Shown: positions 14,437 to 26,743 of the stretch, in pieces
Layout of the letters: every line of letters starts with the position of its first letter
How positions within the stretch are numbered: the stretch's first letter is position 1
Assembly: GCF_009914755.1 (NCBI RefSeq)
Contig: NC_060943.1
Length of the DNA stretch: 64,000 bases
Source: the human T2T-CHM13v2.0 reference genome, Homo sapiens
Reading direction: 5' to 3' (one strand)
The notes under the pieces: generated by a model
Told to the model about the DNA's origin: nothing
Seen by the model: only the letters and a program-made list of their open reading frames with translations
The model's database searches: none
Position numbers and translations under genes: made by a program

Positions 14437-14726
<290 letters not shown>

Positions 14727-17038: not shown

Positions 17039-17860
17039 TTACATCCACCAGTCCATAGACTCTTTGGGGCAAGCCCTGACGATGACCATACAGTGGGGCA
17101 GCCCCTTACACAGGATCTTCTCCGCCTCCTGACCCTCCCACCCCAGCCCCTGCAGCTCAAGGACTCTGAGCTTGGGCATAGTGAGGCAGGAGGAGAGGAT
17201 TTCAGTGGGGGAGGGCATTTCTGGGGTGACGAGGGGACCCTGCAGGCACAGACTCTCCAGGGCCGGCATTCCCTCCAGCACAGCCAGGCCAGGGGCAGAG
17301 AGGCCCCTCACGGTCAGCCGGATCTTGCGCACATCTCGGAGGTGGCGGCTGATGGCCAGCAGGGTGCTGTCGGCAGACAGGGTGCAGCCCAGCACCTCAA
17401 GCCTCTGCAGATAGCTGAGCTCCTGCAGGCCAGCATCCAGCCCTGTCTCGGTCACACGGTAGGTACCACCCAGCACCAGCGAGCGCAAGGCCCGGAAGCG
17501 CGTCAGGCCCTGCAGGTGCTCGTCACGGAAGGCGGGGACGCGGTCCAGCACGATGCATTCAAGCAGGGGCAGCACGGTGGGGTCCTGCTGCTTGTGGAGC
17601 CAGGCCATGGAGATCTCGCAGCTGTGCAGCTCCAGGGTCCTCAAGGTGCTGGGCAGGCTGGTGATGGGCACCATGCTCAGGTCGGCCACGTGCAGGCAGA
17701 GGCGCTTCAGGTTGGGGCACTTCTGGCCCAGGGCTCTCAACAGAGCAGGGGACAACTGGGGGGCCTGGGAGCCAGAGAACAGGTAGCCACCCATCCGCAG
17801 GGAATGGAGCCGGGATGCCATGTACCTTCGAAGGAGGTGCCACATGACTTTAGGTCGCAT
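17039..17860 (-). CDS. FBXL12: FBXL12 coding exon 3 (leucine-rich repeats, MRPKVMWHLL...ESMDWWM*)
   Basis: Acceptor ctcttacag|ATG. LRR motifs (LKRLCL, LRTLEL, LRSLVL, LQRLEV). Spliced total is 326 aa. Confidence 0.97.
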   Translation of the reverse strand: MRPKVMWHLLRRYMASRLHSLRMGGYLFSGSQAPQLSPALLRALGQKCPNLKRLCLHVADLSMVPITSLPSTLRTLELHSCEISMAWLHKQQDPTVLPLLECIVLDRVPAFRDEHLQGLTRFRALRSLVLGGTYRVTETGLDAGLQELSYLQRLEVLGCTLSADSTLLAISRHLRDVRKIRLTVRGLSAPGLAVLEGMPALESLCLQGPLVTPEMPSPTEILSSCLTMPKLRVLELQGLGWEGQEAEKILCKGLPHCMVIVRACPKESMDWWM

Positions 17861-23291: not shown

Positions 23292-24688
23292 TGAACCAAG
23301 AGAGAAAGAAACATGTTTTAATGAATCTTCTCAGGCGGCTGAGGCAGGAAGATGGCTTGAGCCCAGGAGATGGAGGTTGCAGTATGTTATGATTTTGCCA
23401 CTGCCTGGGTGACAGAGTGAGATCCATCTCAAAAAAATAAATTAGAAAAAGATAAACTGCAGAGCATAAATGTTATGGGCTACTTTTGACAGAGGAATCA
23501 AATCTTCCTTGCCAAATTTAGACCCGTGTGGGTCAGCAGAAATTGACTAGAAATAGTGGCCACCGAATGGTAACTCACAAGGGTAGCAGTTAAAGTTGGT
23601 AAAATTTTAAATGCACACAAAACCAATGGACGAATCAACTTTTCCTCGCAAAACCAACAACTAAGTTTCAACAACTGAGAAAAAGTTTCATATTATCAGG
23701 CCAGACACTGTGGCTCACACCTGTAATCCCAGCACTTTGGGAGACTGAGGTTGGGGGACAGCTTCAGTCCAGGAGTTCGAGACCATCCTGGGCAACATAG
23801 CAAGACTCTGTCCTTAAAAAAAGAACTTCAAAAGCAACTGTATTAAAGGGAGTTACAGATGGATATATACAGTAAAATTGTTTAAAAGTAGAACACTATC
23901 TAAATAGTAGAACAGCATTACCCGAAGTTCAGAAATACATTACTAACACTATAATTGTTTTTGGACACACACATATGAAGTAACGTAAAAGGAAGGGTGC
24001 AAATTCACTTTATAATAGCAATTATCTATGAAGACAGTTTCAAAAAGGGCAACAAATATATCTATAAATGTTTTGAGCCAGTTGCTGTGGCTCATGCCTG
24101 TAATCTGAACACTTTGGGAGGCTAAGTCGGGAGAATCACTTGAGCCCAGGAGTTCGAGACCAGCCTGGGCAGCATAGTGAGACTCCGTCTCTACAAAAAA
24201 TAAAAAATTAGCAGGTGTAGTGGCGAGCGCCCGTGGTTCCAGCTACTCAGGAGGCTGATGCGAGAGGATCGCTTGAGCTTGGGAGGTCGAGGCTGCAATC
24301 GCACCACTGCACTCCAGCCTGAGCAGCAGAGCGAGACTCTGTCTCAAAAACAAAACAAAAACTTGATAACATAGTCATAAATTAGCATTTATCGAATGAT
24401 AAATATGTGCCAGACTGTTCTAAGCCCTTTCCCTGCGTGATCTCAGTGAAGTCCCATAATAGCCCCGTGAGGCAGGTACTGTCCTTTATCCCCATTGCAG
24501 GGATGAGGAAATTGAGGCCCTGAGGTCGAAGAGGAGCTGGTAAGCGATGATGCCGAGATAGGCCCCGGATCGCCTGGCTCTAAATCCCCAGCCCGGGCCC
24601 CGACACACAGTCCCAGGGTGGGAGAGGTGGTCTTCGGGGTCCGGGCACCGCGACCGCGGCCCAGGCCCGCCCGGCCAGCTGCGCGTAC

Positions 24689-24761
24689 CGTGTAGAGCGT
24701 CAGGTCGACATGTCGCCACAGCCACCGGTCGTCCACCAGCCTCTTCCAGCGGTGACAGACC
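24689..24761 (-). CDS. FBXL12: FBXL12 coding exon 2 (rest of F-box, RVCHRWKRLVDDRWLWRHVDLTLYT)
   Basis: Acceptor ctcccccag|G and donor ACG|gtacgc. 73 nt. Exons 1+2 give 159 nt, 53 codons. Confidence 0.97.
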
Positions 24762-24871
24762 CTGGGGGAGGGGACGCGCGGTTAGAACGACCCCAGCCCC
24801 GGGCCACATCGCATCTCCAGGTGCCAGCTGCGCCCTCCGCCCTGCCCTTCCCCCCGGAGGCGGGGCCGCAC

Positions 24872-24957
24872 CTGGAGATGCGGATCCGGTCCCGTACCGG
24901 GAGGTAAGAGAAGATCTCGAGCAGGACCGAGTCCGGCAGTTCGACCAAAGTCGCCAT
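24872..24957 (-). CDS. FBXL12: FBXL12 coding exon 1 (F-box N-terminal part, MATLVELPDSVLLEIFSYLPVRDRIRIS)
   Basis: ATG at 24957 and classical F-box motif LPDSVLLEIFSYL. Donor CAG|GTGCGG at 24871. 86 nt, phase 2. Confidence 0.97.
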
Positions 24958-25199
24958 GATCCCGCCGACACGCACTTCCGCTTCCGGTTAAAGAGACCCG
25001 AGGGGTCCTGGGGGCGCCGAGGCGGCTGACAGGGCGGCGGCCGCGACCTTCCCGTAGCCGGTCGAGAAATTTGACCTTCCTCTCGCTGGGAAGTGATTCG
25101 GTCCCAGGGCCGGACCAGCCGCGGATGGGGACCAGAAACCAGCCTGGAAAGCGTGGCTGAGGCAGTGAGAGGCTTGCGGGAGGTGGCTGAGGCGTGATT

Positions 25200-25940
25200 T
25201 GGCCGCGACTGGGAACTAAGACCAAGTCCAGAAGGCGGGGCTGGAGTGAGGCGAAGCTCGGAGGCGGGGCTAGAGACGAGGACCAAGTCCGGAAGGCGTG
25301 GCCGGGGTGGGGTGAGGATCGGAGGCGGGGCTAGAGACCAGGACCAAGTCCGGAAGGCGTGGCTGGGGTGGGGCGAGGATCGGAGGCGGGGCTAGAGACG
25401 GGGACCAAGTCCGGAAGGCGTGGCTGGGGAGGGGCGAGACCCGGGGACGGGGCTAGAGGCGAGGCCCAAGCCCGGAAGGCGTCGCTGGAGTTGGGCGAGG
25501 CTCAGGGGCGGAGCCAGAGAACGGAACCAAGTCCAGAAGGCGGGGCTGGGGCGCGGCTAGGGGGCGGGGCTAGAGACGAGGACCAAGTCCAGAAGGCGTG
25601 GCTGGGGTGGGGCGAGGATCAAGCCCGGAAGGCGCGGCTGGAGCGGGGCGAGGCCTAGGTGGGGCTGCAGACGAGAACCACGCCTTGGAGGCGTGGCTAG
25701 GGCGGGTAGAGGCTCGGACAACCGCTGGAAGGCGGGGCTGGGGCGGGGCGAGACCTTGGGGGCGGGGTTGACGACGAGGACCTAGCCGAGAGGTCGTGGT
25801 CTGGACGGAAACCAGGCTGCAGCAGGACCAGGCGCCAAGGGCGTGGCTGGGGAGCGATGGAGACGCTCGGAAGGTGGGGAGCGGGGGACGGAGACAGGGA
25901 GAAGACTACGCCATGAAGGCGTGGTTGAGGCGGGGCGAGG
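25200..25940. repeat. GC-rich minisatellite with ~61-bp unit (two ~30-bp halves)
   Basis: Unit ggaggcggggctagagacgaggaccaagtccggaaggcgtggctggggtggggcgaggatc starts at 25260, 25321 and 25382, with more degenerate copies on both sides. Confidence 0.9.

Positions 25941-26141: not shown

Positions 26142-26672
<531 letters not shown>

Positions 26673-26742
<70 letters not shown>
26673..26742. repeat. Compound microsatellite (TG)n(TA)n(CA)n
   Basis: Read directly from sequence. Confidence 0.95.

Positions 26743-26743
<1 letters not shown>

What the first reader, a model, noticed from the sequence alone, without database searches (positions are those of the whole stretch)
24810..24882. Perfect 15-bp hairpin sequestering the FBXL12 exon-1 splice donor
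Seen: plus-strand cgcatctccaggtgc (24810-24824) is the exact reverse complement of gcacctggagatgcg (24868-24882). In the pre-mRNA, the last 11 exonic nt plus GUGC of the weak donor (CGCAUCUCCAG|GUGC) can pair with an intronic antisense copy 43 nt downstream. The GC-rich loop can pair further (cctccg/cggagg). Retaining the 110-nt intron shifts the frame and stops in exon 2 (ORF ends at 24700). Inference: this is an RNA-structure switch that blocks U1 binding and tunes how much F-box-containing FBXL12 is made.
Basis: partly seen in the sequence, partly recalled or inferred. Interest (0 to 1): 0.8.

Follow-up and report, generated by a model that had tools for sequence, protein, structure and literature searches.

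The report
Strong hairpin over FBXL12 exon-1 donor
An old inverted copy of the exon 1 end of FBXL12 sits inside its tiny first intron, so the pre-mRNA is predicted to fold a very strong hairpin over the main splice donor; an ancient retrocopy shows that this intron was once left unspliced in mature RNA, but nothing yet shows the hairpin controls splicing.

Summary
24810-24824 and 24868-24882 are perfect 15-nt reverse complements, 43 nt apart. On the minus (gene) strand the 5' arm is the last 11 nt of exon 1 plus GUGC of the donor. The stem is predicted at -30.3 kcal/mol and P~0.94. No composition-preserving shuffle gave such a repeat (0/100 window, 0/2000 local).

New here: FBXL12P1 on chr2 is a retrocopy that lacks intron 2 but retains intron 1. 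This shows a polyadenylated intron-1-retaining FBXL12 RNA once existed. It also shows the inverted repeat is old and was once at least 20 nt, so it looks like an inverted duplication that has since eroded.

RefSeq has two weaker, more exposed upstream donors in exon 1. Transcripts using them lose the intact F-box frame.

Against a special role:
- The donor is not weak (74th percentile).
- Three of 279 other chr19 donors have equal or higher predicted opening energy.
- No RefSeq transcript retains intron 1.
- Cross-species conservation and RNA data could not be tested.

Verdict: a plausible constitutive brake on the main donor, a new member of a known kind. A regulated "switch" is unsupported.

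The parts
24868..24882 (-). 5' arm of the stem: last 11 nt of FBXL12 exon 1 (24882-24872, codons of R-I-S-R) plus intron +1..+4 (GUGC, 24871-24868); contains the main donor CAG|GUGCGG
24810..24824 (-). 3' arm: intronic antisense copy, intron +48..+62
   Evidence: pair probabilities about 0.94 for 13 of 15 pairs and 0.45/0.55 for the two end pairs
24825..24867 (-). 43-nt G+C-rich loop, itself folded (inner helix CCUCCG 24860-24855 with CGGAGG 24839-24834)
24833..24855 (-). Four G-runs in the sense RNA that match the G3+N1-7 quadruplex pattern; six runs of three or more G in the intron in all
   Evidence: pattern match only
24800..24892 (-). Whole extended hairpin: imperfect basal pairs + 15-bp stem + inner helices; -57.5 kcal/mol, z = -3.6, 0 of 200 shuffles as stable
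24762..24871 (-). Intron 1, 110 nt, 76% G+C; length is not a multiple of 3
24780..24786 (-). Branch-point-like UCUAACC about 20 nt upstream of the acceptor; predicted unpaired (mean 0.89); the surrounding GUUCUAACCGC is unchanged in the retrocopy
   Evidence: branch-point consensus recalled
24892..24900 (-). Alternative donor CCG|GUACGG (exon end 24898), 26 nt upstream of the main donor and just outside the perfect stem; used by 4 of 10 RefSeq transcripts; shifts the frame when spliced to exon 2
24970..24978 (-). Second alternative donor GAA|GUGCGU (exon end 24976), in the 5' UTR upstream of the ATG; 1 of 10 RefSeq transcripts
24955..24957 (-). Start codon of full-length FBXL12 (NM_017703.3)
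24700..24702 (-). Stop codon reached if intron 1 is retained (85 codons); its last base is 11 nt upstream of the exon 2 / exon 3 junction
17858..17860 (-). ATG (Met54) that opens exon 3: start of the F-box-less protein annotated for 6 of 10 RefSeq transcripts and described as Fbl12deltaF
   Evidence: PMC5668677

Best explanation
The intronic arm is the remnant of an old inverted duplication of the exon 1 / intron 1 junction, of the kind that replication template switching produces. The copy was at least 20 nt when the retrocopy FBXL12P1 was made; today 15 nt remain perfect.

Once RNA polymerase has transcribed about 62 nt past the exon end, the nascent RNA can fold a very stable helix that buries the main donor from -11 to +4. 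I propose it acts as a constitutive, kinetic brake. Transcripts that engage U1 before the 3' arm appears are spliced normally and give the full-length F-box protein. Transcripts that fold first either keep the 110-nt intron or use one of the two weaker, more exposed upstream donors. Retention, and the 24898 donor when joined to exon 2, shift the frame. The 24898 donor with exon 2 skipped stays in frame but drops residues 21-53. The 24976 donor removes the start codon. So none of these products encodes an intact F-box.

Shown: the sequence, the frames, the alternative donors, and the past existence of an intron-1-retaining mature RNA. Inferred: that the helix forms in cells, that it competes with U1, and that it causes these outcomes.
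For: - Perfect 15-bp stem, duplex -30.3 kcal/mol, pair probability about 0.94 when folded within the first 664 nt of the pre-mRNA.
- In step-wise folds, donor accessibility falls from 0.23 to 0.02 exactly when the 3' arm is complete.
- The cost to free -3..+6 is 16.4 kcal/mol, rank 4 of 280 donors, against about -7.2 kcal/mol for U1 pairing.
- The main donor is the strongest of the three in exon 1 (weight-matrix percentiles 74, 33 and 17) but the most buried (mean P(unpaired) 0.03, 0.35 and 0.51). Even so, 5 of 10 RefSeq transcripts use the weaker upstream donors.
- FBXL12P1 is colinear with the mRNA from inside exon 1 to 12 nt before its 3' end. It lacks intron 2 exactly, keeps all of intron 1, and has an A-run plus a 12-nt target-site duplication.
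- The intronic arm differs at 1 of 15 positions between gene and retrocopy, against 25 of 91 in the rest of the intron.
- The retrocopy's intronic arm is a perfect 18-nt complement of the present exon, running 5 nt further along the exon than today's stem (second row).
- Hairpins that block U1 at a donor are an established mechanism, e.g. MAPT, SMN2, VWF, ATM and BCL2L1 (PMC9977717 passages; PMC1802598 abstract).
Against: - No experiment or RNA data were available here.
- The buried donor is the one used by the RefSeq Select transcript, so any block is partial.
- 0 of 10 RefSeq transcripts retain intron 1, and no intron-1-retention protein appeared among the 16 named-source hits (15 further candidates were left out by the tool).
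- Predicted burial is not unique. SBNO2, CRB3 and KHSRP donors have equal or higher opening energy, the median donor already costs 6.1 kcal/mol, and 10 of 280 have mean P(unpaired) below 0.045. Such predictions therefore do not by themselves forecast poor splicing.
- The 302-nt region as a whole is not unusually stable for its composition (z = -1.6; 5 of 100 shuffles as good).
- Short G+C-rich introns are retention-prone without any hairpin (PMC1831480 and PMC4216919, listing and abstract starts only).
- The lower divergence of the arm is not significant (Fisher p = 0.11), and part of it lies on the unconstrained retrocopy lineage.
- The stem has shortened in the gene lineage, which does not suggest selection for maximal pairing.
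- The retrocopy's own donor carries 3 changes, so I cannot exclude that its source RNA retained the intron for another reason.
Confidence: 0.42

Rival explanations
1. Neutral relic. A template-switch or inverted-duplication mutation created the repeat long ago. The exon arm is held in place by protein coding and the splice signal, and the intronic arm has simply not yet decayed. In cells U1 binds co-transcriptionally and helicases clear the helix, so it has no measurable effect. Retention of intron 1 in the retrocopy only reflects the general sluggishness of short G+C-rich introns.
For: - Template switching makes perfect reverse-complement repeats in one step and can re-homogenise them (PMC8794818 abstract and opening text; PMC5453318 listing only).
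- The repeat was at least 20 nt and has eroded to 15 nt in the gene.
- With a per-lineage neutral divergence of about 0.13, no change in 15 nt has a probability of about 0.1, so it is not surprising (my calculation).
- The buried donor is the main one used.
- Other normally used donors are predicted to be as buried.
Against: - A 15-bp G+C-rich helix of -30 kcal/mol with a short, self-folding loop is far stronger than the U1 pairing.
- All 2-3 changes on the gene lineage fall in the distal 7 of about 22 ancestral positions and none in the proximal 15. P is about 0.02-0.09 if the events are independent (my calculation).
- Weaker upstream donors are used in 5 of 10 curated or modelled transcripts.
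Confidence: 0.38
2. One reading: a regulated RNA-structure switch, opened or closed by a helicase, an RNA-binding protein, a G-quadruplex in the loop or the polymerase speed, that sets the ratio of F-box-containing FBXL12 to F-box-less products according to cell state.
For: - Everything listed for the brake model.
- The loop carries a quadruplex-type G-run pattern that would compete with the inner helix.
- F-box-less FBXL12 forms exist and are reported to matter: a dominant-negative-like Fbl12deltaF that rises after UV (PMC5668677), and a shorter form reported in mitochondrial fractions (PMC3575844 passages).
Against: - No evidence of regulation of this intron or donor was found. Six searches naming FBXL12 gave only exon-skipping and alternative-terminator events in tumour splicing tables and nothing on intron 1 or a hairpin.
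- The published source of Fbl12deltaF is a promoter in intron 2, not splicing.
- Retention and 24898-donor transcripts put a 47-85-codon frame from a well-placed ATG in front of Met54, so they should translate the short protein poorly (inference).
Confidence: 0.1
3. A DNA-level element. The two arms each carry an E-box-like hexamer (CAGGTG / CACCTG) about 350-410 bp downstream of the transcription start, inside a RefSeq 'silencer' interval. The repeat would then be a paired protein-binding site or a cruciform-forming site.
For: RefSeq lists 'silent region_10044' at 24715-24874, which covers the intronic arm and 7 nt of the exon arm. Both hexamers are in the sequence. That repressors such as ZEB/SNAI bind this hexamer is recalled, not tested.
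Against: The identity runs 15 nt (formerly at least 20), well beyond a 6-bp site, and one hexamer is simply the donor consensus. No binding data were available. The silencer call comes from a large screen and its interval also covers exon 2.
Confidence: 0.05
4. A Microprocessor substrate. The roughly 33-bp imperfect hairpin across the exon/intron junction is cleaved like a splice-site-overlapping pri-miRNA, destroying the transcript.
For: Overall stem length and loop size are in the pri-miRNA range. The only Rfam hits on the hairpin are miRNA-precursor models.
Against: Those hits are far below threshold (20 bits against a gathering score of 76, E = 0.34; and 19.6 against 100, E = 0.91). No miRNA is annotated here. 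No small-RNA data were available.
Confidence: 0.03

Closest known systems
MAPT exon 10 donor stem-loop
   Same: A hairpin spanning the exon/intron junction that limits U1 snRNP access and so sets an isoform ratio (PMC9977717 passages).
   Different: The MAPT stem is short (recalled, not checked here), sits at an internal cassette exon, and causes exon skipping. It is validated by disease variants and probing. Here the stem is 15 bp and perfect, sits at the first exon, the expected outcomes are intron retention or upstream-donor use, and nothing has been tested.
SMN2 exon 7 terminal stem-loop 2 (TSL2)
   Same: An inhibitory structure over a donor. Destabilising mutations raise use of the donor and strengthening ones lower it, and U1 recruitment is reduced (PMC1802598 abstract).
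   Different: TSL2 acts on a weak donor. The FBXL12 donor is average to good. TSL2 has mutational and probing proof.
BCL2L1 (Bcl-x) alternative donor choice with a U1-blocking hairpin and G-quadruplex
   Same: Competing donors in one exon, with a hairpin and G-quadruplex-type sequence nearby (table in PMC9977717). FBXL12 exon 1 has three donors, a stem over the main one and a G-run pattern in the loop.
   Different: I read only the review's table row. Details of the BCL2L1 structures were not compared.
Hairpins created by replication template switching
   Same: A nearby reverse-complement copy that makes a perfect stem in one mutational step and can be re-homogenised (PMC8794818 abstract and opening text).
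   Different: One-step origin cannot be shown without outgroup genomes. Here only a gene-against-retrocopy comparison was possible.
Semi-processed pseudogenes (e.g. mouse preproinsulin I; a TMF1 insertion)
   Same: FBXL12P1 lacks one intron and keeps another, and has an A-run and a target-site duplication (class described in PMC4151081 passages).
   Different: It is 5'-truncated and dead. RefSeq annotates only the part up to the exon 2 boundary, so the retained intron lies outside the annotated pseudogene.
Fbl12deltaF from an alternative promoter in intron 2
   Same: Also yields FBXL12 without the F-box, starting at the ATG that opens exon 3 (PMC5668677).
   Different: It is a transcriptional route, independent of intron 1. 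It shows that the hairpin is not needed to make the short protein.

Membership tests
Donor-sequestering pre-mRNA hairpins (MAPT exon 10 / SMN2 TSL2 type) | The helix includes the donor nucleotides that pair with U1 (-3..+6) | tested here: met
   Perfect stem covers -11..+4. P(unpaired) is 0.00-0.16 at each of the nine positions -3..+6, 0.16 at +5 and 0.03 at +6. This is prediction only.
Donor-sequestering pre-mRNA hairpins (MAPT exon 10 / SMN2 TSL2 type) | The structure forms in the RNA (enzymatic or chemical probing) | not testable with these tools
   No probing data available. Thermodynamic prediction only.
Donor-sequestering pre-mRNA hairpins (MAPT exon 10 / SMN2 TSL2 type) | Stem-disrupting mutations raise donor use and compensatory ones restore inhibition; U1 recruitment is reduced | not testable with these tools
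   Needs a minigene, genome edit or antisense experiment.
Donor-sequestering pre-mRNA hairpins (MAPT exon 10 / SMN2 TSL2 type) | An alternative processing outcome exists at this junction | tested here: met
   Upstream donors at 24898 (4 of 10) and 24976 (1 of 10) in RefSeq. Intron 1 is retained in the retrocopy FBXL12P1. A causal link to the stem is not shown.
Donor-sequestering pre-mRNA hairpins (MAPT exon 10 / SMN2 TSL2 type) | Pairing conserved or covarying across species | tested here: inconclusive
   No non-human vertebrate DNA was reachable. Gene against old retrocopy: intronic arm 1 of 15 different against 25 of 91 in the rest of the intron, Fisher p = 0.11. The distal part of the old stem is lost in the gene.
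Known RNA families, including miRNA precursors (Rfam 15) | Score at or above a family's gathering threshold | tested here: not met
   Best hits on the hairpin were 20 bits (threshold 76) and 19.6 bits (threshold 100).
Semi-processed retrocopy (for FBXL12P1, chr2) | One parental intron removed exactly and another retained; A-run and target-site duplication | tested here: met
   Intron 2 is absent at the exact junction. Intron 1 is present (chr2:68035127-68035270). An A-run and a 12-nt direct repeat flank the copy.
Template-switch-generated inverted repeat | A nearby reverse-complement copy longer than chance allows | tested here: met
   15 nt today. An 18-nt perfect match between the present exon and the retrocopy's intronic arm, 20 of 21 in alignment A3.
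Template-switch-generated inverted repeat | An outgroup or ancestor lacking the copy, showing a one-step origin | not testable with these tools
   No other vertebrate genomes available.

The most novel reading that the evidence does not exclude
The hairpin is a kinetic gate kept since before the primate radiation. Whether U1 captures the FBXL12 exon-1 donor in the one to few seconds before the antisense arm is transcribed (my estimate from usual polymerase speeds) would then depend on polymerase speed, helicases and G-run-binding proteins. In that reading, DNA damage or growth signals would set the balance between SCF-competent FBXL12 and RNAs that cannot encode an intact F-box. The intron-retaining RNA would be stable because its stop codon lies only 11 nt before the last junction, which predicts escape from nonsense-mediated decay.
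Probability: 0.1. Interest if true: 0.7.

Novelty: new member of a known kind. Interest (0 to 1): 0.45.

Why it matters
FBXL12 is the substrate receptor of an SCF ubiquitin ligase, with reported targets in the cell cycle and DNA repair (introduction of PMC5668677). Forms without the F-box are reported to behave differently, even as dominant negatives.

If the helix really limits use of the main donor, it would be one of the strongest natural donor-sequestering hairpins on a routinely used human donor. That would make it a clean system for studying the race between U1 binding and RNA folding. It would also offer a handle, an antisense oligonucleotide against a purely intronic 15-mer, to raise full-length FBXL12 without touching the protein code.

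The retrocopy finding stands on its own. It is a fossil record of an intron-retaining transcript, and it shows that old retrocopies can be used to date and polarise intronic RNA structures when other genomes are not at hand.

Tried and rejected
- **Cross-species conservation.** No tool here reaches non-human vertebrate DNA. I used the human retrocopy as the only old comparator.
- **Protein search for database proteins translated through intron 1**. The 3 hits with high coverage turned out to be exon-2-skipping frameshift forms. Others read into intron 2. None retains intron 1. Fifteen candidates of unnamed source were left out by the tool.
- **Known RNA families.** Rfam gave nothing at threshold.
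- **'Weak donor'.** Rejected. The weight matrix was built from only 275 chr19 donors; MaxEntScan was not available.
- **Uniqueness of burial.** Rejected. By opening energy the donor is 4th of 280, not first. By mean P(unpaired) it is 3rd of 280 and lowest of the 121 with G+C of 0.65 or more.
- **Significance of low divergence in the intronic arm.** Not reached (p = 0.11).
- **A larger null of 120 twenty-kb chr19 tiles**. Not obtained. Only 20 pieces of 10 kb were delivered.
- **Literature.** None of the 6 that name FBXL12 listed a paper on this hairpin, on intron 1 retention or on FBXL12P1 structure. The 'hairpin' hits were judged from titles and abstract starts only.
- **Closed supplements.** Supplementary tables were closed, and lists of retained or detained introns, of conserved complementary regions and of RNA quadruplex sites may mention this intron.
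- **Dating of the retrocopy.** The estimate, on the order of 60-100 million years, rests on divergences and on lineage rates that I recalled. Treat it as rough.

Full report
**1. The observation**

The plus strand at 24810-24824 is the exact reverse complement of 24868-24882: 15 of 15 positions, with 43 nt between the arms. FBXL12 is on the minus strand. RefSeq ends exon 1 at 24872 and starts exon 2 at 24761.

In the RNA, the 5' arm is therefore the last 11 exonic nucleotides plus GUGC of the donor CAG|GUGCGG. The 3' arm is intron positions +48 to +62. Intron 1 is 110 nt and 76% G+C.

Read from the ATG at 24957, an intron-retaining RNA stops at 24702-24700 after 85 codons.

**2. Is it more than chance?**

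- In the window, the only other perfect inverted repeats of 14 bp or more with a loop of 100 nt or less are one 23-bp repeat-derived pair and simple-repeat pairs.
- Dinucleotide-preserving shuffles in 500-nt blocks gave a 15-bp one in 0 of 100 window shuffles and in 0 of 2000 shuffles of 24400-25400.
- For 280 RefSeq NM_ donors (the window plus twenty 10-kb chr19 pieces), I measured the longest perfect stem that includes the GU, with the partner between -100 and +150. The counts by stem length were 2:1, 3:35, 4:81, 5:94, 6:42, 7:17, 8:6, 9:1, 10:2 and 15:1. The single 15 is FBXL12.
- Extrapolating that tail gives about 3e-5 per donor, which is a handful in a genome. Chance is not formally excluded genome-wide (my inference). 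The next section shows a better explanation of its origin.

**3. What the fold looks like**

- The two arms alone give -30.3 kcal/mol.
- When the first 664 nt of the pre-mRNA are folded, 13 of the 15 pairs have probability 0.93-0.94. The donor (-3..+6) has a mean unpaired probability of 0.03.
- The 93-nt hairpin (24892-24800) folds at -57.5 kcal/mol, z = -3.6, with 0 of 200 shuffles as stable.
- In step-wise folds the donor is moderately open (0.45, then 0.23) until the last base of the 3' arm is added. It then drops to 0.02.
- Against special status: the 302-nt region as a whole is not unusually stable for its composition (z = -1.6; 5 of 100 shuffles as good).
- The cost of freeing the donor is 16.4 kcal/mol, the 4th highest of 280. 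SBNO2, CRB3 and KHSRP donors cost as much or more, and the median is 6.1.
- By mean unpaired probability the donor ranks 3rd of 280, and lowest of the 121 with G+C of 0.65 or more.
- Predicted burial alone therefore does not show poor splicing.

**4. The donor and its competitors**

The donor is not weak. A leave-one-out weight matrix built from 275 GT donors puts it at the 74th percentile. Its pairing with the U1 5' end is -7.2 kcal/mol, against a median of -8.7.

RefSeq lists 10 transcripts:
- 4 use this donor.
- 4 use CCG|GUACGG with exon end 24898, which lies 26 nt upstream, just outside the perfect stem.
- 1 uses GAA|GUGCGU with exon end 24976.
- 1 starts downstream of exon 2.
- None retains intron 1.

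The two upstream donors are weaker (33rd and 17th percentile) but more open, with mean unpaired probabilities of 0.35 and 0.51. The 24898 donor spliced to exon 2 shifts the frame and gives a 47-codon product. With exon 2 skipped it stays in frame but drops residues 21-53. Six of the ten transcripts are annotated as coding only from the ATG that opens exon 3, Met54. That is a protein without the F-box.

**5. The retrocopy, the main new finding**

A search of the reference with exon 1 - intron 1 - exon 2 found one other place, on chr2, at the RefSeq pseudogene FBXL12P1.

- The chr2 copy (chr2:68033625-68035321, minus strand) aligns to the intron-1-retaining mRNA from position 302 to 1971 of 1983, at 83% identity.
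- Intron 2, about 6.8 kb, is absent at the exact exon 2 / exon 3 junction. All of intron 1 is present, at chr2:68035127-68035270.
- The copy is 5'-truncated inside exon 1. It ends in an A-run and is flanked by a 12-nt direct repeat, so it came through an RNA intermediate.
- RefSeq's annotation of FBXL12P1 stops at 68035126, the first base of the exon 2 equivalent. The retained intron therefore lies outside the annotated pseudogene.
- The one paper that names FBXL12P1 is unrelated by its title and abstract start.

A polyadenylated FBXL12 RNA with intron 2 removed and intron 1 retained therefore existed in the germ line when the copy was made. This is the class called semi-processed pseudogenes (PMC4151081 passages).

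**6. What the retrocopy says about the hairpin**

Divergence between gene and copy is 0.12-0.15 in the exons and 0.245 (27 of 110) in intron 1, with 34 gap columns. This fits an intron that drifts on both lineages. Non-CpG Jukes-Cantor distances are 0.147 for the 3' UTR and 0.26 for the intron. With lineage rates that I recall, this puts the insertion on the order of 60-100 million years ago. The estimate is rough.

- The intronic arm differs at 1 of 15 positions. The loop differs at 11 of 43 and the 3' part of the intron at 14 of 48. Fisher p = 0.11. This is suggestive but not significant, and the retrocopy lineage is unconstrained anyway.
- The retrocopy's intronic arm continues to match the exon complement beyond today's stem. 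It is an 18-nt perfect complement of the present exon (second row) and matches at 20 of 21 positions in alignment A3.
- The repeat was therefore at least 20 nt, and the gene lineage has lost the distal part through one deletion and two substitutions.
- The simplest origin is an inverted duplication of the junction, as template switching produces (PMC8794818 abstract and opening text).
- That all the gene-lineage changes fall in the distal 7 of about 22 positions has P of about 0.02-0.09 (my calculation). This is a hint, no more, that the proximal 15 bp are protected.

**7. Mechanism**

I favour a constitutive kinetic brake (confidence 0.42). The helix is much stronger than the U1 pairing. Transcripts that fold before U1 commits would be diverted to intron retention or to the upstream donors, and none of these outcomes keeps an intact F-box frame.

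The retaining RNA has its stop codon 11 nt before the last junction. By the 50-55-nt rule, which I recall as established knowledge, it should escape nonsense-mediated decay. That fits its survival to retroposition.

The main rival is a neutral relic with no measurable effect (0.38). F-box-less FBXL12 already has a published source in an intron 2 promoter (PMC5668677, parts 1-2 read; the terms 'hairpin', 'first intron' and 'retention' are absent from that paper). A shorter form lacking the F-box has also been reported in mitochondrial fractions (PMC3575844 passages).

DNA-level and Microprocessor readings are minor. The first rests on a RefSeq silencer interval at 24715-24874. The second is weakened by Rfam hits far below threshold.

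**8. Comparison with what is known**

Hairpins that hide a donor from U1 are well established: MAPT exon 10, SMN2 TSL2, VWF, ATM and BCL2L1 (PMC9977717 passages; PMC1802598 abstract).

This case meets the structural criterion only by prediction, and it has alternative outcomes at the junction. Probing, mutational and U1-recruitment criteria could not be tested, and conservation is inconclusive. I file it as a candidate new member of a known kind. It is notable for the length and perfection of the stem on a routinely used first-exon donor, and for the fossil evidence of retention.

Six searches naming FBXL12 listed nothing on this structure. Tumour splicing tables list only exon-skipping and alternative-terminator events for FBXL12, and one paper names it without an event type in the passage seen. 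Supplementary tables were closed and may hold relevant lists.

**9. Verdict**

Interest is 0.45. The decisive tests are a mammalian alignment of intron 1, isoform-resolved RNA data, and a stem-disrupting and compensatory minigene or antisense experiment.

Noticed in passing
L021:1328-1522 (chr2:68035127-68035321), outside the window: FBXL12P1 retains FBXL12 intron 1 and part of exon 1. RefSeq's pseudogene interval stops exactly at the exon 2 boundary, so this part is unannotated.
   Followed up: yes
window 24715-24874: RefSeq functional element 'silencer, silent region_10044' covers exon 2, most of intron 1, the intronic arm and 7 nt of the exon arm. Both arms contain an E-box-like hexamer.
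   Followed up: no
window 24833-24855 (minus strand): The hairpin loop carries four G-runs matching a quadruplex pattern. In the retrocopy this G-rich part is 26 nt longer.
   Followed up: partly
window 26150-26672 (+), overlapping the FBXL12 upstream alternative first exon on the other strand: The SNORA70-like snoRNA plus RPL10P15 form one roughly 520-bp unit with 44 matches in the reference (a lower bound). The chrX matches are split by a short gap that the other copies lack. It looks like a family of retrocopies of a partly processed RPL10 RNA that starts inside the snoRNA. One look only.
   Followed up: partly
window 14566-14588 / 14671-14693: A 23-bp perfect inverted repeat with an 82-nt loop, the longest in the window. 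It looks like two oppositely oriented Alu pieces (by recall).
   Followed up: no
window 26673-26743: A (GT)n run facing an (AC)n run, giving perfect inverted repeats up to 18 bp.
   Followed up: no
window 24689 downstream into intron 2; proteins P0004, P0005, P0006, P0008: Named-source proteins of human, two monkeys and a bear read from exon 2 straight into intron 2. P0001-P0003 (sheep, chimpanzee/catarrhines, cat) are exon-2-skipping frameshift forms.
   Followed up: partly
L005 (chr19:1078897), L015 (chr19:6456096), L014 (chr19:6405373): Donors of SBNO2, CRB3 and KHSRP have predicted opening energies of 18.9, 17.5 and 16.5 kcal/mol, as high as or higher than FBXL12, without a long perfect stem.
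   Followed up: no
L022, 3' flank of the retrocopy (chr2, just below 68033625): The sequence next to the target-site duplication looked LINE-1-like to me by recall. I did not test it.
   Followed up: no
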